Shown here in pieces: positions 15-14,000 of a stretch of DNA of 14,000 nucleotides. The notes beneath the pieces are model-generated. The model was given only the letters and a program-made list of their open reading frames with translations. It was not told the DNA's origin and searched no databases. Made by a program: the position numbers and the translations under genes. Origin of the DNA: Takakia lepidozioides (lineage: Eukaryota > Plantae > Bryophyta); the NCBI GenBank assembly GCA_030704615.1, contig JAKLZA010000300.1, positions 1-14,000 of the forward strand. The letters are read 5' to 3'. Position 1 is the stretch's first letter, and each line of letters begins with the position of its first letter.

Positions 15-140
15 TACAGCCTATCACAGCCCAGCACGGCGCAGTGCAACACAGCCTATCACAACCCTACCACAGCGTGTCACAGCCTATCACAGTGTAC
101 CACAGTATGGACACACCTGTCACAGCTCAACATAGCCTAC
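15..140. repeat. CACAGCC tandem array of the flanking sibling element
   Basis: ACAGCCTATCACAGCC units; reverse complement of the 6178-6330 array. Confidence 0.85.
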
Positions 141-841
141 TAGGATACACGATCCATAGAATCAGTGACAGGTGGGCGCACAATAAACTTTAGGAAAATG
201 GCTGCGGAAGAAAAGGACGGAAACCAGTTAAAAATAGACACGTGGAAGTCAGTGCGCGCCACACAGCCGAGAAGGAAGTGAAGAACAAGAACAGGTGTCA
301 AAAGAAGAGGACAAGAACGGCCGTCAAAATGGATGAAAGGCGGCCATTAAGAAATACGGAAAAAAAAAGGGGAACGAACAAACGGCAAGTACAGAAAAAG
401 CGAAATTCGTGCCACATGTGTGATCTAGTGGACTATCCAGCAGTGAACGTCCACTAAAGAAAATGAAAGCTAAAAATCAAGTCACAGTGGTTACAGCCAA
501 TAGAAAGCAGAGAAAGATCAAGAAATGGGAGGGAAATTAAGCGCAAGAGGCGGCGTCGTTTTGAGTAAAACGGGTCGTCTCGAAAGGACAGACCATCAAT
601 TCTATAGCTTGAAACTATGGAGGAGGAGGAATAACAGACTATACGCTTGAAATACTACTTACGCAGTTGATAGGGACGACGAAACAAACAGAGCGGATAT
701 TTTCTCTTTGAGCGATGCTTGACAAGCCCCACAGGCTTACAAGAAATACCCCATAGCTTTTGTCACAACCATACTTTTATGCTTGTGCATACAGGCATTT
801 CTCAGTTGTTACAGCCAAAACATTTCTGTGCGTCTTAGAAT

Positions 842-846
842 GCCGA
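842..846. other. Candidate left 5-bp target site duplication GCCGA
   Basis: These 5 bp flank the LTR start, and Gypsy elements typically make 5-bp TSDs. The partner copy would lie outside the window, so this is unverified. Confidence 0.45.
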
Positions 847-1886
847 TGTCGCGCGGCTTTTCTCACCCATCCCTTCGCTATTCGAGGCGGAAACTCCAAG
901 ATTGAAGAGTTGGAAATCTCTAAGTACTCAGCCCGCGCAGAACAATCAGTCATGACCTACAGCTAGTGTATCATGGGGGGGTGTTCTTATTTGTTTCCCT
1001 TTTGGTATTCATGTTAACTATCTACCATTGATAATTAAGTATCAGTTTGCTTTATCAATCTATTGGATTCCATCAACTCATCCATTCATTCCACAGCTTC
1101 ACTCAGATCTCTCTACACAGTGTGATTGTATCGTAAAAGTATCCGATTATGATTTATCAGGTATCAGGCCGAAGCCATTGTGTCTCTAATCTACTCTACA
1201 ATATCATTAGCCTTGCATATATCAAGCATCTACTCATCATCTTCTATCTTCACTTCCGTTCTTCATCTCTGCCCGATCCCCTCTCCTCTATCACCAAGAA
1301 GTCCTCCTCGAATCCCCTCCCTCAATCCCCGTTTCTCCCTTTATCTTCCTATCCGCGGTTCTAACCGTTTCCCTCACTAACCGTCGTCTGTGAACTAACA
1401 TGTTCCCTTCGCAGGTGTTGTTCACTGTCTGACTCTTCGTTCCCTATGATCTGACAGCTGTCAAGCTGTGACTGGCTGTGTGAAAGTGACGGGCTGTGTG
1501 ACTGGCTGTGTGACTGGTGTTTGATGTGGTCGGGAGTGACTGGTTGTGTGACTGGCTGTGTGGTGTGAGGGCTGTGTCGGCTGTGTGGCTGTGTCTGCTG
1601 TGACGACTGTGACGGCTGTGTGGCTGTGTCGACTGTGACGGGATGTTTTCTTCTGCTGTGTTGATGGTGTTGTGGTGTCGTGTGAAGAATGTGGGGGCTG
1701 TGTTGGCTGTGTGTTGGCTGTGTGTCGGCTGTGTGACGACTGTGACGACTGTGACGGGCTGTGTAACCCCCCTCTACAGTGCGCTGCTGTCACCCCTAAG
1801 GCTCCTGTTGGTCTCAGTCTGTGCAAAAATTAAGGGTACCCTACAGATCCCGTATAAGTGTCTAAGTCCCCGACAGTCCTCTAACA
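847..1886 (-). repeat. 3' LTR (~1040 bp), TGT...ACA termini
   Basis: Aligns with 13180-14000 (for example ~868-975 is essentially identical to ~13201-13308). The right end CTAACA (1886) abuts the polypurine tract. An alternative end at CGACA (1875) is less likely. Confidence 0.88.
1457..1765. repeat. Tandem array inside the 3' LTR (U3 side), (GG/GA)CTGTG core, mostly 9- and 12-bp units
   Basis: Repeated units ACTGGCTGTGTG, GGCTGTGTC and GACTGTGAC. Confidence 0.92.
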
Positions 1887-1902
1887 TTACCCTTCCCCCC
1901 TA
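1887..1902 (-). promoter_or_regulatory. Polypurine tract (plus-strand primer)
   Basis: Minus strand TAGGGGGGAAGGGTAA immediately precedes TGTTAGAGG, the start of the 3' LTR. Confidence 0.85.
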
Positions 1903-1915
1903 AAAAGCCGTGTCC

Positions 1916-4900
1916 TCACGGTTTACTGATTTCGACTAGCAAACCTTTGTGAGTGAGCACCTCTTGACGTTGAGAGTTTCGTGGCGGACTGTGTGTACGA
2001 GCCCGAGGTCTGTCTCTGGTTGACGAGAGATGGTTGATCACTACCTGGATAAGTGAGGCCCTCTGGAGGCTGATATCGAGGTGGAGGTAATTTTCCGGCA
2101 TAGGAGATCCCCGTCGCTTCTTCTCTGCCATCTGAATTGCATAGTCTTCTCCCATGTCAAAAGAATTCGGTGAAGAAACAGTTGTATCAGAATCCTCATC
2201 GCCTCTCAGGTGTTTTAATTTTCGAACTTTTTGTGAATCATCTGGGGCATACAATGTGTCTACTACCATGTCTGGAAGTTTGTATTTTACAACATTGGTG
2301 TAACCGCTGAACAGCAAAATTGGTGTAGACACTGAGCTCTTGTCTGTCCAGGTGAGTGGGGGGGGTACCAATTACTGGTGCAGCGTGCAAGTACTTCCAT
2401 GCCACATGTCCCTTATAGAAAATGTCATCAATGCCGAAATTTCTGTGTTGACAAATGGTTGCAGGCCGCTTGAAACCATGAACGAATTTGAGAATCCTTT
2501 TGCATCATAACTTTTGGGTCATATAGGTACATATGAGGTGGCACCGAAGGTAATACCCAATGATCTCCACTGAATAACTTTGAAAGCGTGTTTGCATCTT
2601 TTGTTGCTCAATGTGGTAACGTACCAGAAAACAAGCAGCGTAGTATAACCCGCACCCCATGACAATACTTGCTATCTCCTTGGTCTTGGTATAAATGAGT
2701 CCATGTACAACCTGGAAAGCAATCAATTCCCTCAACATGGTACCTGCCTCGTGCCAGTATTGTGCAAAGTGATGATCTTCAATATGTCGATTGTTCGGAA
2801 GAACTTTAGTCCTAGTTGCCACTGGCAGCCAAATACGCATGATTTGGTAGTAATGTGCGAATGACTGCGGAGGACTAAATTCTTTCCAAGCCAAATCCAA
2901 CATGATGGGAATTTGGTTGAAGGGCATAATCATAGCCCTACTGTACTCCCTGCAGCTGGAGTTTTAGGTGGGTTTAAAAGCGGCATTGCCCCATACCTCC
3001 GGCTGTGGTGGCTGTGGTGTGGTGTGGTTGTAGTAACCACAGGTTCAGCTACTGGTACAGTGACTTGTTGTGGTGTGGTGGTACTGGCTCTTGTATCATT
3101 GGCATCTCCTGCACCTCCTGTGAAGACTGAAAAGCCAAAGTTCTGGCTTGTAAATAAGAAGCCATTAGCTGTTCCTGAGGGATATAGACTCTTTGGTCGA
3201 TGTTTGAAGTGAGTTCTTCCACTTGAGTCTGGAGTCCGTCTACATCCTCTTGTAACTCTGCTATCCTACTATAGACATTGTCTATAGTAGTTGTGGCAAT
3301 GTTCTGCACCTGCAGCCTGAGCTCATTCATCTCGCTTTGGGTGAGCTTCCGTGGTGCTTTGCCCTCTACTGGCCCTTGTGCTAACCAGACCTGCATAAGG
3401 CTGTTATCCACCAAGTTGCTTGTGGTTCCCCTGAGAGTTTGCTCCTCTCTTAGCTTGTACAATTCCAACTGCTGTTGTAAAGCCTCCATGCGCTTCGCCT
3501 GAGGTTCAACCAATTGCGCATAAGCAGCAAGTAGATTATTGGCTTCCTTCCAAGCCTTGTTATTGACCGCGATTTCATTTCTATTGGCCATGATGGTTTG
3601 TTGCAACTCCACGATGTGCTTTCTCTTGATCAGCTTCAATCTGCCTGTATTGCTTGAAAGTATCTTCATTGCGACAGATTGTATTCTTCATATCGACAAT
3701 GAGCTTCATTTGCTCAACATTCTCTTCTTCTGCCTTCGTACATTTTTCCGCTTGACTGTTTATTTCTTTTGTAGATTGGTCAAGCATAGTTGTAAATGTA
3801 GCACATTGTATCGCCATCCTGTTATGCACTGTCTGCAACTCCGTATGTAGTGCATTCAGTTCTTGCAACTTGCTTTCATGCTGCACCTGCATTTGGTATA
3901 GCTGTTGCTTATGTGCTTCGTGCAACTGGTCTTGCGCGAGGCCTGCCTCAATCAATTGTTGCTTGGCCAATTGCAAAGCCATTTCTGTATTTCCAAGTCC
4001 TGCTTCATCTTGAGAGTGACCTCTTCATCGACCTTGTTTGCACACTCAGTGGCAAGTCGAGCCTCAAACTCCTTCCTGAGTTCCTCTTTCAAGGCTGTCA
4101 ATTGGGTAATTGGAACATGGGATTTGACATAAGTCCCCAACAAATTAAGTGTCCTGCCTATGGAACTCATCAGCATTGCCTGTTGAGGGTCATCATGGTG
4201 AGGTTGCTGCTGTTCCTCCTGATCTTCAACAGTGTGATGTCTCACTAACCATTCAGGCCATTGTCCCACCGGATTTTCTTCCTGAACTACTTCATCTATC
4301 ACCGGTGCTACAGTGTCATGACCTTCCGCCTGTGGTACCTCCGACACAGGTGTGTGTATTATATGCACCTCAGGATTTCCCTTGGGCAACTGTTGCACCT
4401 CTGGGTTCTGTCTCCTTGACCAGACCAGAATATTCATAGAGAAGGTCCCCCTTCTCTATTTCTGCCACTATCTGTTCTGTAGTTGGAATATCTAACCCTT
4501 CACTTTCCAAATCAATTATTTCTGGTTGAGCTGCATGGATAACTTGTGACCTTGTGACAAGTCGTTCAGGTGGCTGTGATGGTTGTGATGCAGAAGTAAC
4601 TTCCTCCTCCCTCTCTGAAGGTCCTGCTTCCAGTAATAGCATTTCTCTGTGCTGCTGTGCCCCTTCCTGGCCATGAGCTTGGGAAACATTATCATGCGGA
4701 ATCCGTGAAGCCAGTGGATCCGCCACTACAGTCTTTCCCCGTCTCTGCCTCTTAGTCTGGGTTGCCCTGCTAGTCCACCCTCACTATGTGTGAAGAGCCT
4801 TGCTCTTCCATTGCAGTTGTTCTGGCTCAAACACTCCCATTTCCTTTTTTCTTGCGCATTAAGTATGCCAGAATCAAGGATTATTTGAGCAATGATTGGG

Positions 4901-5705
4901 CCAGACACTATTATAGGAGACTTTGCGGTAGTACCTTGTAATCTTTTCATCTCCTCTACCAGTGCGTTGTACATTATGTCCGCCCATTGTACCTCTTGTC
5001 CCTTCAGGCCTTTGAGTATTTCCTCCGTGAAGGATCTGCTCAAATACTGTTGGTTCTGTTTCATGGCAATCAATCAGAACGTTCAATACCTGGCCTACCT
5101 CTTTTAACCCTGGGTACACAGCCTTGGTACAAGCATAACCCTGAGTTTTAAAGAAACTCCCTTCTTGGAATAAGTCCCCTATTTGCAGTCTTGCCCTGTG
5201 TTGCTCCACATGCACCTGACCTGCTGGCAATCGAAACAATTGCTGGAGGTATAGGGGAGTAATCATTAATTCAACTCCCTTCACCGTTGTTGTTCCTGTC
5301 TTGGCTCAAAGTTCTGCAAAAATTGTAACATGTACTGTCTATGGTGTGTAGTGTCCAATCTAGGCTTTGCAATCCTTGCAATCTCAGCTCCTCCAGTATC
5401 TGTATCGCCTGTGGGGTAGCAATCGTTTGTTTCTGCAGAATTGTGGTGCTCTTCACCCTGATTTCCTCCATTCCTCTCACTCTCTTCATTTTAGACTCAC
5501 AGAACTGTTTTGGCTGTAACAACTGCAGGAATGCCTGTAGTGCACAAAGCATAAACGTATGGTTGCCGCAGAAAGCTATGGGTAATTTCTTGTAAGCCTG
5601 CGGGGCTTGCAAGCATCGCTCAAGAGAAAAGCTCCGCTCTGTCCTTTCGTGTCTATGCCACTGCGTAAGTAATATTGCGAGCGTATAGTCTGTTAGTTCC
5701 TCCAT
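1916..5705 (-). pseudogene. Large sense-strand extra ORF downstream of pol (plant-transposon-protein-like domain + coiled coil + unknown C-terminal domain); frameshifted, probably a single ~1200 aa gene
   Basis: Minus-strand ORFs tile almost without gaps: 6038-5271, 5284-4874, 5073-4726, 4726-4370, 4437-3952, 3982-3581, 3669-3049, 2933-2505 and 2371-1916. The final stop is 13 nt before the PPT. Candidate starts are ATG 5705 and ATG 5489. Confidence 0.75.
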
Positions 5706-6177
5706 AGTTTCCAAGGTATAGCATTGATGGTCTGTCCTGTCGAGACGCCCGTTACTCAGAACGACGCCGCCTCTTGCGCTCAAATTCCCTCCATTTTCTT
5801 GATCCTTTCTCTGGTTTTCTATTGGCTGTATCCGCTGTGACTGGATTTTAGATTTTATCTTCTTTAGTGGACTTTCCCTGTTGGATAGTCCACTAGGATC
5901 ACACATGTGACAAGAATTCGGCTTTTCTGTACTTGCCGTTCGTTCCGTTTCCCTTTTTCCGTACTCATTAATGGGCCCGCCTTTCATCCCTTTTGACGGC
6001 CGTTCTTGTCCCTTTCTTTTTGACACCTGTCCTTGCACTTCATTCTCGGCTGTGTGTCGCGCCTGACCTCCACGTGTCTATTTTTAAAGTAATTTCCGTT
6101 TCTTCTTCCGTCAGCCATTTTCCTGAAGTTATTATGTGTCCACTTGTCACTGATTCTATGGATCGTGTAACTTTAGT

Positions 6178-6470
6178 AGGCTGTGTTGAGCTGTGACAGG
6201 CTGTGTGTCATACTGTGTTACGCTGTGATAGGCTGTGATGCACTGTGGTAAGCTGTGTGATAGGCTGTGACACGCTGTGGTAGGTTGTGATAGGCTGTGT
6301 TGCGCCGTGCTGGGCTGTGATAGGCTGTGTTGCGCTGCTGGGCTGTGATAGGCTGTGTCACGTCGTGATGGGCTGTGATAGGCTGTGTCACGTCGTGATG
6401 GGCTGTGTGTGATGTGATAGGCGTGTTGCTGTGATGGATGGTTTGTGAGCTGTGATAGGCTGTGTCACGT
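6178..6470. repeat. Internal tandem array with GGCTGTG core, ~10-bp subunits and a 30-bp higher-order unit
   Basis: 6341-6370 and 6371-6400 are identical copies of GGCTGTGATAGGCTGTGTCACGTCGTGATG, flanked by degenerate copies. Confidence 0.92.
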
Positions 6471-7895
6471 TTGTTTGCCCACCCTGGTCATATATGCTGG
6501 GCCTAGCGACAAGTGTTCCATACTCCGTTCGTAACACTGGTGCAGCCCGTGACTGCTCTTGCGGTTCAACATGCAAATCATGCTGCAGGGGTTTGTCATG
6601 GATACCACTGTACCCCTTCAACTTATTGCATTGACTCTTCCCAGCATTTCTTTGTTAATGGTTTGTAACATGGCGGTGTGTGTTGTATCATACATCTTTT
6701 GTATGACATAAGGTCCTTTCACGGTGATTTAAGCTTAGAAGCTTGAATCTTTCCTTTCTTCTGCAACCATAGAACCAAATCCCCCGTCTTAAAAGTCTTT
6801 AACTTGCCTTCATCAAACTGTTCCTTTCGCTTCATCTGAATTCTGGTCATATTATCAGCTGCATCAGCACGTACTTCTTCCACATGGTATAATTCATGTT
6901 TCCTGACCTTGATGGAGTCTTGCAATTCCATTCTTTTCCCCACTCCGTTCTCATGGTAGGTAACAGGAATTCCACTGGAAGTAAGGCTTCCATACCATAA
7001 ACTAATTGGAATGGTGTATACTTAGTGGTGACTTTATATGAAGTCCTGTATGACCACAAAGCTGTCAGCAGCTTTGTATCCCAATCCGTTCTGTTTGCAT
7101 TGACTATCTTAGCCAAGATAGTACATAGTATTTTGTTGGTAGCCTCTGCCTGCCCATTACCCTGTGGGTAATATGTTGTACTCTTTCTATGCACAATCAT
7201 AAACTCTTTAGTCAACAACTCAATGGTCTCATTCATGAAGTGACTTCCTTGATCACTGATAAATTCTAAGGGACAGCCAAATCGTGTAAGTATGTTCTCG
7301 TACAGGAACCTTGCTGTGGACTTGGCTGTGTTGTCCCTCAAAGCTTTAGCTTCCACCCACTTTGTAGTATAATCAGTGGCTGTAATTATGTACCTGTTTC
7401 GTGTATTCTTGGATGGTGGGTTAATTGGTCCAACAAAGTCTAGTCCCCATTTCTGAAATGGTTCCGTAGGCATTGTAGGATGCAAGGCCATCCTTCCAGA
7501 TCTCTGCAAAGGTCCTAGCCTCTGACATTCATCACACTTCTGACAATACTCGTGTACATCTTTGAACAAAGTAGGCCACCAGTATCCTGCGAGTAGTATC
7601 TTTCTACTGGTAGTCTCTTCTCCAAAATGACCTCCAGCCACTCCTTTATGAACTTCCGCCAAAACTTTATTTACTTCATGGTGGTACAAGCATCGTTTAG
7701 TACTCCATCAGGTCCTAACTTATACATTCTGCTTCCTACCATAGTATAAGGTAAAGCTTTGATAGCGATTCTCTTCCTCTGCTCCTTACCATAACTAGGT
7801 GGGCACTGACCATGAGCAAGGTAGTATCTGATTGGCCACTGCCAATCTAACCATTCATCTGCACTTCCTTGCACCTCCATTACAAAAACTCGCAT
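6388..7895 (-). pseudogene. pol: Integrase (HHCC, DDE core, GPY/F C-terminus, low-complexity tail); frameshifted
   Basis: Motifs EVHKGVAGGHF...CQKCDEC, WGLDFVGP, ISDQGSHF, GNGQAEATNK, FKTGDLVL, KGPYVI and RVN..KLKGY. The last frame continues to a stop at 6388 inside the tandem array. Confidence 0.95.
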
Positions 7896-7939
7896 CAGGT
7901 AACTGATCGTCTATTCCTGTGGCGGCCTCTCCTGTTGTT

Positions 7940-8300
7940 AGTCGTGACAAATGATCTGCCACAAGATGCAAACGGCCAGGCTTGTAAATAAACCTCGAAC
8001 TCAAACTCGTGCAAGATTATTAACCATCTTGCTATTCTTCCGCTTATCAGAGGTTTGTTTACCAGGTATATCAGAGCCTGGTGATCCACATAGAACATAA
8101 ACTTCTGCCCAACAGGTAATGCCTGAATTTCTTCACTGCATAGATCATTGCCAATGCTTCTCTTTCCGTTGTGCTATAGTTCCTCTCAGCACTGTTCATC
8201 AACCGGCTAGCATAGTACACAGGTGAATCTATATTCCCTGTAACATTCTGGGCTAACACCGCTCCCAACGCTTCTCCTGATGCATCGCAGTGAACATGAA
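7940..8300 (-). pseudogene. pol: RNase H domain; frameshifted
   Basis: Motifs [62 protein letters not shown] and VADHLSRL. Confidence 0.95.
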
Positions 8301-8341
8301 TACTACATGCCAGTGAGGGTTAATCAGCACAGGTGTAGTTG

Positions 8342-9326
8342 TTACTGACAGTGTGTAAGTTCCTCAAATGCCTGTTGACATTCAGCTGTCCAGGCAAACA
8401 CTGCATCTTTCTTCAGTAGTTTGCTCAATGGTGCTGCTATTTGTGCATACCTTTTGACAAATCTCCTGTAATAACTGGTTTGCCCAAGGAATCTCCGTAG
8501 ACTTTTAACATTCACTGGTGGTGGAGAGGCTTTAATGGACTCTGTCTTTCTGGGATCCACAAGGAGTCCCTCTTACACACAATGTGTCCCAGAAGCACCC
8601 CTGAGTTCACACAGAAAGTACACTTCTCTGGATTCAGGCCCAGACCTCTCATCCTGCATCTGGCCAAACATAACTCCAATTTATGCAAGTGCTCATTCTT
8701 AGAGCTGTACACACTGAAATCATCCAAGAATACCTGCATGAAATCATCCAGATACTCATGAAAAGATTCACTTATCACTCTCTGAAAGGTCGCTGGTGCA
8801 TTACAAAGTCCAAAGGGCATGACTTTGTATGCATAGCCCCCCAGTCTGTGATGAAAGCTGTTTTCCCTTGGTCTTCTTCTGCCACTTGCACTTGATTATA
8901 ACCACTGAAGCCATCCATGAATGAGTACATCTCATGGCCTGCCACAGTGTCTAATACTGCTTCTGTGAATGGCAAAGGGAAAGGATCTTTCTTCGTACAA
9001 GCATTCAGCTTCTTATAGTTCACACATACTCTTAGTTTGCCATTCTTCTTGGGAACTATAACAATGGGTGACAACCAAGTTGTATACTCTATTGGGTATA
9101 TAAACTTAGCCTCAGCCAACTTCTTTATCTCTTCTCCAACCTTCTGTGCGTAGTTGGGATTCATTCTATACCTCGCCTGCTTGATTGGTACTGACCCTGG
9201 TTCCAGTTCAATCTTATGCTGACAGACTTCAGGTGGTATCCCTTTTAGATCCTCATAGCTCCAAGCAAATACATCTCTGTATTTGATGAACAAGCTTTTA
9301 GCTTCTTCGAAGAATTCCGGCTCCAA
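8342..9326 (-). pseudogene. pol: Reverse transcriptase plus connection domain; frameshifted
   Basis: Motifs WLSPIVIVPKKNGKLRVCVNYKKLN, DPFPLP, FMDGFSGYNQV, MPFGLCNAPATFQR, VFLDDFSV, LNPEKC, LLGHIV and LRRFLGQTSYYRRFVK. Confidence 0.97.
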
Positions 9327-9769
9327 ATCAGCTCCTACTTCACCATCCTCGGTTCCTCTTTAGTTCCCACATTTACTTTCCTCACCTGCTCATCAGCTGT
9401 GATTGTCCAACCAGTCACCACTTCATCCTGTAAGCTCACAGTGGCTGGTTCTTCTAGGATTTCTATTTCTCCTTCTCTTTCTTCATAGAAATGTGATGGG
9501 TAAATGCTGGTTTCCTCTTCAGTTGGTGTTGCTGTCACTACACCACAGCAGATACCTCTCAAACAACTTAGGCTTTCCAGCCGCATCTCTGCAACCTGCT
9601 CCCACTCTGGGTGTGCAGCAAATAGGGTAGCTTCCTGCTCCTCATCCAGTCCTCCTCTCCAGTCATACTCTCTGACTCCTCGAGGTCTTCTTGTAGCAGG
9701 TAATCTACTAGATTTCTTTGTGGTAATTTGTATCTCGTGTATCCCATTATGCACGGTTAGTAACTGAGA

Positions 9770-10110
9770 ATTCCAGTCATGGAATACCCTGGCCTGTTTC
9801 AGCCACGGACGTCCCAATAATAAGGAGTAAGCCTCCATGACTTCATCCATTTTTAATACAGTTACTGTGATCATAAAGATCATTTTCTGTATCTGTATCT
9901 TAACTCCTCTTATTAATCCAATGGCTGTACACTTCTTTGATCTGCCATTGTTACTGTAAATGGGGCTGGTTTCATGTTACTTAGACCAAGCTTCTTCCTT
10001 AATTGGTCTGTCATGATATTTACTCCAGAACCACCATCTATCAGTACATCAGTTAGTTCTGTGCTTCCAATTCTCAATTGGATTACTGGCATAGAATCAT
10101 CAAAGTCCAT
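9770..10110 (-). pseudogene. pol: Aspartic protease domain of pol; frameshifted
   Basis: Catalytic motif VLIDGGSGVNIM, then VTMADQ and LLLGRPWL. Confidence 0.92.
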
Positions 10111-10649
10111 GACTGGTTTCTCGCCCTTCCGGCTTCACATTATAACTGGTCACCTTGCTGTTCAGGTCTGTGTTTCCTGTCTCTTGGGCAATTCGATTGA
10201 TTGCTTGATACAGCCTGTGCCTACAATAAGGTGCCACAGCTAATAGCTGTCCAATGGTAATTTCTGCTTTGGTCTGAATATTACTTCAGCCAAAGTCTCT
10301 TCATTACTTTGCATGTCTGCATCTTCTTTTTTCCTTTCTTCCTCACTCCCTTCTTTTCTCCATCCGAATCAGAGGAATCTGCCACAGGAATATCAGTACT
10401 CTTTGCATTTCCCTTATAGTATCTGCCACTTCCTTGTGCAGTTCCTTCTCATCTTTCCAAGTCTCTTCATCTTCAGGCATATCATTGCCACTTCCAGCTC
10501 ATCTTCTTCCTCTTCTACTGGAGGTATTAGTTTGGCTTTACTTCTTGTTACTATCATTGTACTTACTTCTGGTACAACACATGGCCTAACCATGTGAGCT
10601 GCCACCACTGGGCCCTCATTCACAGGAGCTCTCATCTCATTCTGGTGTC

Positions 10650-12505
10650 TTATCCAGAATGAACAGGCTGCCTTGCGATGTCCTGGCTGATTACAATAGT
10701 AACATAGCTCTTCACCATTGGGTCCTCGCCCTTGGTCTGTTCTTGGATTATTTCTATAATCCTGATTCCCGGGCTGGTAATTCCCCTTGGATTACCCTGA
10801 TAGTTGCCTCTGGAATTTCCTTGGTAATTCCCTCTTGAATTACCTCTCCCTTCCATGCCATTGTTATAACCACCAGACCTACCATAGTGGTCCTGATCAT
10901 TGTTTCTTCTTGGCTGGGCTGCACCTGATGCACCCTTACTTGCCTAGGTTCTCTTGCAGCTGTCCTTCTGTTGTAGTAACAATTCTCAGTAGAATGGTTA
11001 TCCATTTTACAGATAGTACAGTGTTTCTCCTTCATGTGGCATTCTGTGGTGGTATGGCCTTCATTCTGGCACTTTGCACACCATACACCCTTCCTCCAAT
11101 GTGTTGCAGCCTGTGGCATACTTCTTCAAGATTTCTTCCAATTTTTTTTATAGTTATCCTCTTCAACTTCTCCTTTCTCTTACTCTTTTTTTAGTTCTTG
11201 CTCTTCTTCTTCATCTGACTCATCCTCAGAGTCCTCATCTTCTTTTTCTCTCTCCTGAGCATTCCAATTGCTCAATTCTGTTCGCAGTTTCAAATGCCTC
11301 CTCCACTGTATTATGGGGTAACATATCCACTTTCTTTTGCAACTCTGGTCTTAGTCCACTCACAAACCAAGTCTTCTGTAACCGGGCGCTGGTACTGCAG
11401 CCAGCTTTTTCATCATCAATTCCATCTTCTCCATATCTCTTCAACAGTTTCATGCTTCTTCTGCTTCAGCTGTTGTAAACTTCCATACACTTCATCCTCA
11501 GTTTTACTTGTCCTGAACCTATTTCGAAATGCTGTTATTCAAGCCATTCCAGGTTAGGAAATGATTATCAGGGAATCTTGCATACCATTCACTTGCTTTC
11601 TTGATAAGTGAACAAGGAGGAAACAGTCTCATCTTGGCATCATCGCCATTCTCATTGTTCACTATACACATGTGCTCAAATTGGCTAATGTGTACATCGG
11701 GATCCCCTTTTCCTGAATATTGGAAAGGGTGGTTTTGCCCGTTGTTGGTGTAACGCCATCTGTGGCCCTACCTTCTGCCCACTGACAGGTGCTGGCACCT
11801 TGCTGGTGCTGGTCCTTCTGGACCTGTTGTTTTTGTGGTGGATCTCCACCACAAGTGTGGCCCTTGAGCACTCCCTGCTTCTGGCCCCACGATATTCACA
11901 GTATTCCCAGCTTCAGTTGCACTACTTCCCACACTCCCTGTCCCCCCAGAGCCAGATCCAGGCAGCCCGCCTGATCCCCCTGAGCCGACACCTTCGTTGG
12001 CCTGTGATCCAAGTGCTCCACTTGATCCAGGTCCAACGGGTTGGGATGTCCTGGTTGTAGTCAACCTCAGCTGTTGGGTCTACTTCTTCATATTCTTCCT
12101 CTTCTAATTTCTTCTCTCTGTTTTCATCCTCCAAGTTCTGCCCTTGGGTTTCTTCTTCACTCATGTAACTCAACTGTAATGGTGTTGGAGAGTCTGAAAC
12201 TCTCCGTTGGCTCTCTGCCACATCCTCTTCTTTCTTCACCTTCTGCTTCAGAAACTGGGAGTTCCTGCTTTTGGTGTTCCATGCCAACTCTTATCAAGAT
12301 TTTGTCAAGTCTTTTATCCAAGGATGTACCTCAGATCTTTCACCTCGTGATTGATCTTCTTCTGTACCAATTCCCTTAATCTTTCTTGCAAAGAAACAGA
12401 AGGAGGGCATCCAACTCTAGTTCTTCCGGTATAGGTGATGCCACTCTTTGATCTTGATGGTGTGAGAGGTCCAGATGATTCCCCTATGTCTATTCCTCTC
12501 CCCAA
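10650..12505 (-). pseudogene. gag: Gag polyprotein region (acidic and Gly/Ser-rich N-terminus, retrotransposon gag core, three CCHC zinc knuckles); frameshifted
   Basis: Gag core motif near 11730-11580 (KPPFPIF..DPDVHISQFEHMC...DDAKMRLFP..L.KKASEWY) and FVSGLRPELQKKV. Knuckles CAKCQNEGHTTTEC and CTICKMDNHSTENC at 10979-11080, and CYYCNQPGHRKAAC at 10663-10704. The start position is uncertain. Confidence 0.88.
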
Positions 12506-12519
12506 AGATATGGATAATT

Positions 12520-13203
12520 AGCTTTCAGATAGCTTTCTCTTTTTGCTGAATATCTCTGTCGTCTAGCTTCTTTTCATCACTCATGTCCCATGTCTTTCAT
12601 TTCTTTATGTGGCAATAACCAAAACTCTCTTCTGTAATATCTCTCGTATATGCCTGGTTTCTTTCAAGCTTCAATGCACCCTTGGCTATACTTGAAGTCT
12701 CCGTTACCATATAACCATATGGCAAACAAGTCTGAAAAGCTGTTCTTGGTGTGAGTTTGATCCACAAAATATCCTTTGGAATCCAATTCTTTACCAGTAC
12801 AAGCTCTTCATGCATATGAGTATAAACATTCACCTTTCTTTTTCCAGCCTTCAAACTCTACTCGTTTAATGGAAGCAATGCTATCACATAAACCAAGTGG
12901 TAACCAACGTGCTTCCTCTACAGGCTACCTGATAAATCTTTATCACTCCTTTCTCCAGACCCCATTCTGGATCAGCATCATGCACTCGTTTAAGAAATTT
13001 TCTTTACAACCGTCTGGCAATCCAAGAACCTTGAAAGAATGTTTGGACAATCTTTCTTCCTTCGTTCCACAGGGAATTTGATTCACTTCAAATTCTTTAA
13101 TGGTCCAACCACCATGATCCCACCAGATGCCTGTCACATCTGGTGGTTCATGTCCCAGGTCCCCAGTATGGTCGCCAAATGTCGCGCGGCTTTTACTCAC
13201 CAT
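12520..13203 (-). pseudogene. Unassigned ORF upstream of gag, or a long Gag N-terminal extension; frameshifted
   Basis: Successive minus-strand frames 13203-12943 (MVSKSRATFGDHTG...WRKE), a bridging frame (PVEEARWLPLGLCDSIASIKRVEFEGWK) and 12854-12597 read as globular protein sequence. No family recognised. Confidence 0.5.
13160..13177 (-). promoter_or_regulatory. Primer binding site, probably tRNA-Arg
   Basis: Minus strand TGGCGACCATACTGGGGA, 2 nt from the LTR end. It starts with TGG (complement of tRNA CCA) and resembles the plant tRNA-Arg-type PBS TGGCGACTCCACTGGGGA known from Ogre/Tat elements. Confidence 0.85.
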
Positions 13204-14000
13204 CCCTTCGCTATTCGAGGCGGAAACTCCAAGATTGAAGAGTTGGAAATCTCTAAGTACTCAGCCCGCGCAGAACAATCAGTCATGACCTACAGCTAGT
13301 GTATCATGGGGGTGTTTCCTATTTGTTTCCCTTTTGGTATTCATGTTAGCTATCTTACCATGATAATTAAGTATCAGTTTGCTTATCAATCTATTGGATC
13401 CCATCAAGTCAGCCCATTTCAATTCCACAGCTTCACTAGATCTCTCTACACAGTGTTATTTGTATCGTAAAAGTATCCGATTATGATTTATCAGGTATCA
13501 GGCCGAAGCCATTGTGTCTCTATATATGCTCTACAATATCATTACAGCCTTGCCTATATCAAGCATCTACTCATCATCTCTCTATCTTCACTTCCGTCTC
13601 CATCTTCCCCGATCCCCTTCCTCTATCCCCAAGAGTCCCTCCTCCGAATCCTCTCCCCTCTCTCCCCACCGTTCTCCATTTATCTTCCTATCCGCGGTGT
13701 TCAAAACGTTTCCCTCACTAACCGTGTCTGTGTTGAACACCTGTTTCCCCTAGAGGTGTCGCTTCCCCCACAGGTTGTTCCTGTCCTACTCTTCTGTTCC
13801 CTCATGTGATGTGCTTTGCGGCTGTGACTGGCTGTGTGAAACTGTGACGGCTGTGACTGGCTGTGCGACTGTGTTTGGCTGTGTCGGGCTGTGACTGGCT
13901 GTGTGGCTGTGTCGGGCTGTGTCGGCTGTGTCTGCTGTGACTGTGACGGGCTGTGTTGGCTGTGTCGGCTGTGACGACTGTGACGGGCTGTGTTGGCTGT
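13180..14000 (-). repeat. 5' LTR (partial, continues beyond the window)
   Basis: Direct repeat of the sequence starting at 847. On the minus strand it ends ...GCCGCGCGACA, followed by TT and the PBS. Confidence 0.92.
13819..14000. repeat. The same GGCTGTG tandem array inside the 5' LTR (partial)
   Basis: GGCTGTGACTGGCTGTGTG / GGCTGTGTCGG units at the position equivalent to 1457-1765. Confidence 0.9.

What the first reader, a model, noticed from the sequence alone, without database searches (positions are those of the whole stretch)
1916..5705. Very large (~1200 aa) accessory gene between integrase and PPT
Seen: about 3.6-3.8 kb of contiguous sense-strand coding fragments. The N-terminal part (5489-4850) has G(V)ELMITPLYLQQLFRLP and GQEVQWADIMYNAL...IVSGPIIAQIILDSG. 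This resembles the pattern of plant retroelement extra-ORF proteins (ATHILA ORF / Transposase_32-like, often labelled env-like). It is followed by an acidic disordered linker, a Q/E/L/K-rich heptad region of ~300 aa (about 4100-3200), and a globular C-terminal region. Established: extra 3' ORFs occur in Athila, Tat and SIRE lineages and are mostly of unknown function. Inference: this size and three-part architecture is unusual and may define a new accessory protein family.
Basis: partly seen in the sequence, partly recalled or inferred. Interest (0 to 1): 0.8.

Follow-up and report, generated by a model that had tools for sequence, protein, structure and literature searches.

The report
VANC-like accessory gene in plant retrotransposon
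A high-copy plant jumping gene carries, after its integrase, one large extra gene whose front domain is predicted to fold like VANC21, a transposon protein that undoes host silencing, so it likely binds the element's own short DNA repeats to keep it active rather than acting as a viral envelope.

Summary
The window holds a Ty3/gypsy LTR retrotransposon on the minus strand, likely from a non-seed plant, with one sense extra ORF from ATG 5489 to about 2100-1916 (about 1,110-1,190 codons). It is broken only by frameshifts, many likely assembly errors. Against a diverged relative, 16 of 24 listed differences are synonymous (6.8 expected). The N-terminal domain recurs just downstream of integrase in 21 of 30 distinct related plant elements (0 of 44 loci upstream). 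A C-terminal domain follows it in 8 elements. Neither domain matches Pfam. A language-model search of the window's own fragment points to Transposase_32 and ATHILA clusters (0.91, 0.89). An AlphaFold model of a homologous N-domain has VANC21 as best match among 48,161 chains (Z 6.5, 174 of 212 residues; modest). The C-domain has no fold match. One heptamer, CACAGCC, fills both the LTR array and a separate array upstream of the gene. Best reading (0.5): a VANC/PMD-like, sequence-specific anti-silencing or activating factor, not an envelope. Extra ORFs of this broad kind are known; the three-part family, its new C-domain and the candidate target motif were not found in print.

The parts
4822..5489 (-). 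Extra ORF, N-terminal globular domain (about 220 aa, in four frame pieces); predicted VANC21/PMD/Transposase_32-like
   Evidence: Read with X at breaks it scores 46.6 bits (E 1e-16) on a profile built only from related loci; best of 300 shuffles 6.2 bits. Atlas. Fold of a homologue.
4100..4821 (-). Extra ORF, basic patch (KRQRRGK, possible nuclear signal, inferred) then acidic, likely disordered linker
   Evidence: D+E 17%
3170..4099 (-). Extra ORF, Q/E/L/K-rich helical stalk; clear heptad repeat near 3290-3185
   Evidence: 0 of 300 shuffles; synonymous bias at 3250-3351; a diverged collinear 1,966-nt contig covers 3218-4482
2960..3169 (-). Extra ORF, Pro/Thr-rich linker
   Evidence: P+S+T 34%; a similar linker precedes the domain in P0122
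2340..2959 (-). Extra ORF, conserved C-terminal helical domain with no Pfam or fold match
   Evidence: P0122, E 8.5e-6; related loci; hhalign E 1.1e-4 over 99 columns, probability 56; model pLDDT 75; best Z 4.6
1916..2339 (-). Extra ORF, acidic and basic tail; true stop uncertain
6177..6465 (-). Tandem array (10/20/30-bp units) after integrase, rich in CACAGCC; candidate binding site
   Evidence: (13 motifs in 301 nt)
5490..6176 (-). Upstream region of the extra ORF, likely promoter or leader (an N-terminal extension is not excluded)
   Evidence: 84% identical to the inverted sibling copy at 16-835
1887..1901 (-). Polypurine tract
   Evidence: Sequence
847..1886 (-). 3' LTR (TG...CA, about 1.04 kb) with a CACAGCC-rich array at about 1460-1765
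   Evidence: 14 motifs in 487 nt
13180..14000 (-). 5' LTR, cut by the window end, with the same array
13159..13177 (-). Primer binding site TGGCGACCATACTGGGGAC (tRNA-Arg/Tat-like by recall, not tested)
   Evidence: Sequence
6500..12300 (-). Frameshifted gag-pol: weak protease match, RT, RNase H, integrase; no additional RNase H or chromodomain detected
   Evidence: Pfam; integrase relatives
16..835 (+). Inverted copy of 5493-6298 from a sibling element, ending at the extra-ORF start next to the 3' LTR end
   Evidence: 84% over 839 nt

Best explanation
The element encodes one large accessory protein that likely works as a sequence-specific anti-silencing or activating factor for its own family: its N-terminal domain is predicted to share the VANC21/plant-mobile-domain fold and would bind the CACAGCC motif repeated in the LTRs and upstream of the gene. 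The helical stalk would oligomerise it so that several heads engage a tandem array, and the conserved C-terminal domain would recruit or exclude a host chromatin factor. Shown: one long sense coding region under purifying selection, conserved N- and C-domains in a fixed position in related elements, and the shared motif in two separate non-coding arrays. Predicted: the fold. Inferred by analogy and untested: nuclear location, DNA binding, oligomer state and the effect on silencing.
For: Homologue model (pLDDT 64, pTM 0.60): VANC21 is top among 48,161 chains, Z 6.5, rmsd 4.4, 174 of 212 residues; next rows Z 5.0 over 84 residues and Z 3.8. Foldseek TMq 0.42 against at most 0.16 for the other listed rows; the second VANC21 entry also gives Z 6.5. 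The window's N-domain belongs to that family (E 1e-16). The only named Atlas families for the window's own fragment are Transposase_32 (0.91; 39% of members) and ATHILA (0.89; 77%). VANC resembles MAIN/PMD (PMC13547354, passages; bioRxiv 10.1101/2024.09.27.615353, passages). [quoted passage not shown] Here the heptamer occurs 51 times against 2.5 expected, at 17-43 per kb in the arrays and at most 1.5 per kb elsewhere in the element. VANC and Athila domains are modelled as coiled-coil oligomers. dN/dS is 0.26-0.36 in 4 of 7 N-domain pairs; the other 3, and all 6 C-domain pairs, are saturated at synonymous sites.
Against: Z 6.5 lies in the range the tool calls common, and Foldseek E was 5. The model is of a related locus read with X at stops, with residues 86-140 under pLDDT 50. 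No Pfam hit to PF10536, PF20167, PF03078 or DUF1985 in 21 members. Atlas scores near 0.9 arise by chance 4-10 times in 100. A shared fold shows no function, and host PMD proteins were first described as silencing factors (PMC5418596). Tandem arrays are common in large non-chromovirus elements (PMC6317226). Most of the 17 related loci scanned have no comparable array between integrase and the N-domain. The shuffle control for the motif does not allow for tandem duplication.
Confidence: 0.5

Rival explanations
1. Same fold, different job: the protein would tether the integration complex or particle to chromatin, or act as a nucleic-acid chaperone or scaffold, without changing silencing.
For: No chromodomain detected on the integrase. 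A nucleic-acid-binding head on a coiled-coil stalk is also the layout of retroelement chaperones (own knowledge). Chaperone roles are proposed for plant env-like ORFs (PMC7264820, first third of text). One copy sits at the start of a sibling element's extra ORF.
Against: The only fold match is a known anti-silencing protein; the motif arrays lie where promoters are expected.
Confidence: 0.22
2. The region holds two genes or alternatively spliced products (N-domain plus stalk, and a separate C-domain gene) rather than one protein.
For: No intact full-length homologue was found. The gap from N- to C-domain is 1.4-2.3 kb in 5 elements but 3.7-5.7 kb in 3. Several relatives with the N-domain gave no C-domain hit.
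Against: Coding signal is continuous with no in-frame stop between the domains. P0122 runs from a helical segment through the linker into the C-domain in one frame. Other copies differ by indels at several break sites.
Confidence: 0.1
3. An envelope-like or cell-to-cell movement protein.
For: Position and orientation match env-like ORFs; a heptad repeat is present; two segments reach hydrophobicity 1.71.
Against: Basic N-terminus with no signal-peptide-like stretch; both hydrophobic segments fall inside globular models.
Confidence: 0.06
4. A decayed captured host gene carried along without function.
For: This copy is broken, and the related copies carry many stops.
Against: Fixed position in 21 of 30 distinct elements; synonymous excess; very high copy number.
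Confidence: 0.03

Closest known systems
VANC21 (DUF1985) of VANDAL21 Mutator-like DNA transposons
   Same: Predicted fold of the N-domain (Z 6.5, 174 residues, chain range 317-528); accessory gene of a transposon; coiled-coil segment; short motif amplified in non-coding tandem repeats.
   Different: Here in an LTR retrotransposon of a likely non-seed plant, whereas VANC is described as dicot-specific. Identity 6%. The domain is N-terminal and followed by a stalk and an unrelated C-domain. Binding and demethylation untested.
Athila extra ORF: ATHILA ORF-1 (PF03078) and Transposase_32 (PF20167)
   Same: [quoted passage not shown]
   Different: No Pfam hit. More than twice the length of the 487-aa sunflower Athila ORF. 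Extra C-domain. PBS and RT motifs look Tat-like (recalled, not tested).
Plant mobile domain (PF10536): PMD-A of Gypsy elements, host MAIN/MAIL1
   Same: Gypsy-encoded accessory domain; structurally linked to VANC in print; found in 57% of Ogre elements.
   Different: No HMM match. Published PMD phylogeny covers angiosperms. No solved PMD structure appeared in the fold searches, so the link runs through VANC21.
Tat Z1/Z2 lineages (Tat elements lacking additional RNase H)
   Same: Reported from non-flowering plants and lacking aRH (PMC10508981); 11 of the 120 listed integrase hits carry an organism name, all fern or liverwort.
   Different: No tree with labelled references was built; the passages read say nothing on extra ORFs in these lineages.

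Membership tests
Ty3/gypsy LTR retrotransposon | Two LTRs, PBS, PPT, order PR-RT-RH-INT | tested here: met
Non-chromovirus (Athila/Tat) with eORF-3'F | Sense ORF of at least 250 codons between pol and 3' LTR; no chromodomain | tested here: met
   definition
Tat with additional RNase H | aRH domain in pol | tested here: not met
   Only the native RNase H was found in the pol fragments scanned; fragments are frameshifted, so a short remnant could be missed
Tat Z1/Z2 versus Athila | Placement on an RT/INT tree with labelled references | not tested
   No labelled reference set was available; the PBS resemblance is recalled
ATHILA ORF-1 / Transposase_32 | Pfam score above cut-off (PF03078, PF20167) | tested here: not met
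   0 of 21 members at E up to 1; 0 of 13 accessory-region fragments. The pieces are short or degenerate.
ATHILA ORF-1 / Transposase_32 | Remote likeness by language-model features | tested here: inconclusive
   0.91 with 159 shared features and 0.89 with 144; a lead, near the chance range
VANC / PMD fold | Structural match over the whole domain | tested here: inconclusive
   Best hit, Z 6.5, rmsd 4.4, 174 of 212 aligned; stands above other rows but is under Z 8
VANC / PMD fold | Pfam DUF1985 or PF10536 match | tested here: not met
VANC anti-silencing system | [quoted passage not shown] | tested here: met
   for this element; not general in relatives
VANC anti-silencing system | Sequence-specific DNA binding and loss of methylation in trans | not testable with these tools
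   Needs bench work
Envelope-like protein | Signal peptide and transmembrane anchor | tested here: inconclusive
   Hydropathy scan only: basic N-terminus, maximum 1.71 in two segments that lie in globular models; no dedicated predictor was run

The most novel reading that the evidence does not exclude
Non-seed-plant Ty3/gypsy elements carry an ancient VANC-type anti-silencing system: a DNA-binding head, a coiled-coil stalk and a new C-terminal effector domain, reading a family-specific motif amplified in the LTR and in an internal array. The so-called env-like ATHILA/Transposase_32 ORFs, PMD and VANC would then be one superfamily that arose in retrotransposons of early land plants, well before angiosperm MAIN/MAIL1 and dicot VANC.
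Probability: 0.3. Interest if true: 0.85.

Novelty: new variant of a known kind. Interest (0 to 1): 0.6.

Why it matters
The function of extra 3' ORFs in plant retrotransposons is a long-open question, and they are often filed as env-like without evidence. Whether such ORFs shape an element's methylation is stated as open in PMC12844716 (passages). This element gives a concrete protein and a concrete candidate motif, so the anti-silencing idea can be tested directly. It also bears on whether the plant mobile domain began in Gypsy elements or in host genes, left open in PMC5418596, and it defines a conserved domain with no known family or fold.

Tried and rejected
Homologue searches: an N-domain fragment (43 candidates) and the N-domain alignment (7,420 candidates, 386-2,000 aa only) found nothing; both are weak negatives. 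P0121 is a tandem-repeat translation and was rejected as spurious. Viral contigs gave no relative. PDB sequence searches gave nothing significant. BFVD gave no match at E up to 0.001 for the N-domain model and was not searched with the C-domain. The C-domain model had no fold match, which does not prove a new fold. The Atlas search of P0122 110-277 gave only scores up to 0.84. The first-half N-domain profile did not find the unjoined window fragments (best E 0.19), only the X-read domain (E 2e-6). The C-domain profile from related loci hits the window only at E 0.0095 and P0122 at E 0.36. The heptad scan in relatives had a biased control and is not used. No RNA holder listed; run X13 is only guessed to be RNA, so expression is not shown. 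No host genome is held, and the loci's records could not be scanned with PF20167. The VANC21 structure paper is not held, so its DNA-contact residues could not be mapped. The PMD sequence supplement of PMC5418596 was not read and may bear on membership. No complex prediction was run. Ten literature searches found no description of this family or of an ATHILA/Transposase_32-to-VANC structural link; most subscription journals are not covered.

Full report
Context. The window holds a nearly whole Ty3/gypsy element on the minus strand: 5' LTR (13180 to the window end), PBS, frameshifted gag-pol, a tandem array (6177-6465), the region in question, PPT and 3' LTR (1886-847). Pfam finds RT, RNase H and integrase, a weak protease match, and no additional RNase H or chromodomain. 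Of the 120 listed integrase relatives, 11 carry an organism name, all Adiantum or Riccia, at 48-60% identity, so the host is likely a non-seed plant (inference). The family is very abundant: tens of thousands of contigs of two runs from one sample lie along all 30 bins of 1880-6200.

Is it one gene? Stop-free frames tile 5489 to about 2100, and a codon model from the element's own gag-pol follows them. The breaks are frameshifts. In the non-repetitive part of the two LTRs there are 26 indel events (23 of one base) but only 19 substitutions, which suggests uncorrected long-read errors (inference). Other copies differ from this one by indels at or near several break sites, among the 12 of 34 indel rows shown. 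Differences to diverged contigs are mostly synonymous: 16 of 24, against 6.8 expected. The likely start is ATG 5489; the end lies between about 2100 and 1916.

Relatives. I fetched 80 metagenome loci with a related integrase; the tool does not name their host. They collapse to 52 distinct groups. A weak hit from one window fragment led to a domain of about 200 residues. It lies in sense within 4.5 kb downstream of integrase in 34 of 51 loci with at least 3.5 kb of flank, or 21 of 30 distinct elements; it lies upstream in 0 of 44 loci and on the opposite strand in 2 of 51. The profile was seeded from these same loci, so the count is not fully independent. A profile from those loci alone scores the window's N-terminal region, read with X at breaks, at 46.6 bits (best shuffle 6.2), and one unjoined fragment at E 7e-8. 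The C-terminal region found P0122 (E 8.5e-6, 22% identity; 1 real of 2 hits), and the pair found a second conserved domain in 14 loci, 9 distinct elements, 8 of them downstream of the N-domain. That link is weaker: hhalign E 1.1e-4, probability 56, over 99 nearly gap-free columns, and reciprocal E 0.0095. Both domains show purifying selection among relatives.

What the domains are. No member of either alignment matches a relevant Pfam family. For the window's own 83-residue fragment the Atlas lists mostly unnamed clusters (0.92), then Transposase_32 (0.91) and ATHILA (0.89); PMC11728184 (passages) calls these two families related. The AlphaFold model of the L014 N-domain (pLDDT 64) aligns best with VANC21 bound to DNA: Z 6.5 over 174 residues, where other rows cover at most 84, and Foldseek TMq 0.42 but E 5. 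The score is modest. Its weight comes from whole-domain coverage and from the hit being a plant transposon accessory protein already tied in print to the plant mobile domain, which Gypsy elements also encode. The C-domain folds as a compact helical unit (pLDDT 75) with no match. The middle has one clear heptad repeat. No convincing membrane anchor was seen.

Candidate target. CACAGCC occurs 51 times in the window against 2.5 expected: 14 in each LTR array, 13 in the array after integrase, and few elsewhere. The two arrays have different repeat units but share this core, as VANC targets do in non-coding parts of VANDAL elements. Against this, most of the 17 related loci scanned lack a comparable internal array, and tandem arrays are common in such elements.

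Mechanism. Shown: gene, selection, conservation, motif arrays. Predicted: VANC/PMD-like head. Inferred: the protein enters the nucleus, oligomerises through the stalk, binds the arrays and keeps the LTR and its own promoter free of silencing, with the C-domain as effector (0.5). Rivals are integration tethering or chaperoning (0.22), two separate genes (0.1), envelope or movement protein (0.06) and a dead passenger (0.03); the rest is unassigned.

Novelty. Sense 3' extra ORFs, Gypsy-encoded PMDs, the VANC-PMD likeness and the guess that transposon PMDs counter silencing are all in print. Ten searches did not find this family, its C-domain, or a VANC link for ATHILA/Transposase_32-like ORFs. 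One earlier AI note on another genome (e1-10601651) reached a similar reading; I saw it after my fold result and did not test it. Papers seen: passages of PMC6317226, PMC13468544, PMC13547354, PMC11728184, PMC5735166, PMC5418596, PMC12859917, PMC12844716 and bioRxiv 10.1101/2024.09.27.615353 and 10.64898/2026.08.24.746577; the first third of PMC10508981 (plus passages) and of PMC7264820; no supplements. Verdict: a real gene, a new variant of a known kind, interest 0.6.

Noticed in passing
window 16-846: An inverted, 84% identical copy of the region upstream of the extra ORF ends at the ORF start, right against the 3' LTR end. It is either an insertion into a sibling element at that gene's start or a rearranged derivative; the bases after the LTR (TCGGCA) faintly resemble the start of the PBS.
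   Followed up: partly
window 847-1390 versus 13180-13731: The LTR pair has more one-base indels (23) than substitutions (19), so this assembly likely carries uncorrected errors and the element may be younger than it looks.
   Followed up: partly
window 2197 / 6062 (tables 5 and 5c): One contig of run X3 joins an LTR-end and PBS-like stretch directly to the tail of the extra ORF; possibly a non-autonomous derivative.
   Followed up: no
window 5865-5895 and 426-456: A palindromic hairpin (TAGTGGAC...GTCCACTA) upstream of the extra ORF is kept in the sibling copy.
   Followed up: no
window 5500-5545: Pyrimidine-rich stretch with several AG dinucleotides just upstream of ATG 5489, shared with the sibling copy; possible splice acceptors.
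   Followed up: no
window 9340-9750: An acidic spacer of roughly 130-150 residues between protease and RT with no Pfam match, at the place where some Tat elements carry the additional RNase H (recalled).
   Followed up: partly
L022:1546-2007, L021:1504-1965: A C-domain homologue lies about 700 nt upstream of an integrase with no N-domain in the locus; likely a nested or rearranged element.
   Followed up: partly
L065:2407-3304, L067:5562-6430, L070:2669-3482; L020:19975-20413, L051:4660-5105: Related loci carry their own shared tandem arrays (AATAACC-type 10-bp units; GAGGTTGAAGG-type 29-31-bp units) that could be family-specific targets.
   Followed up: no
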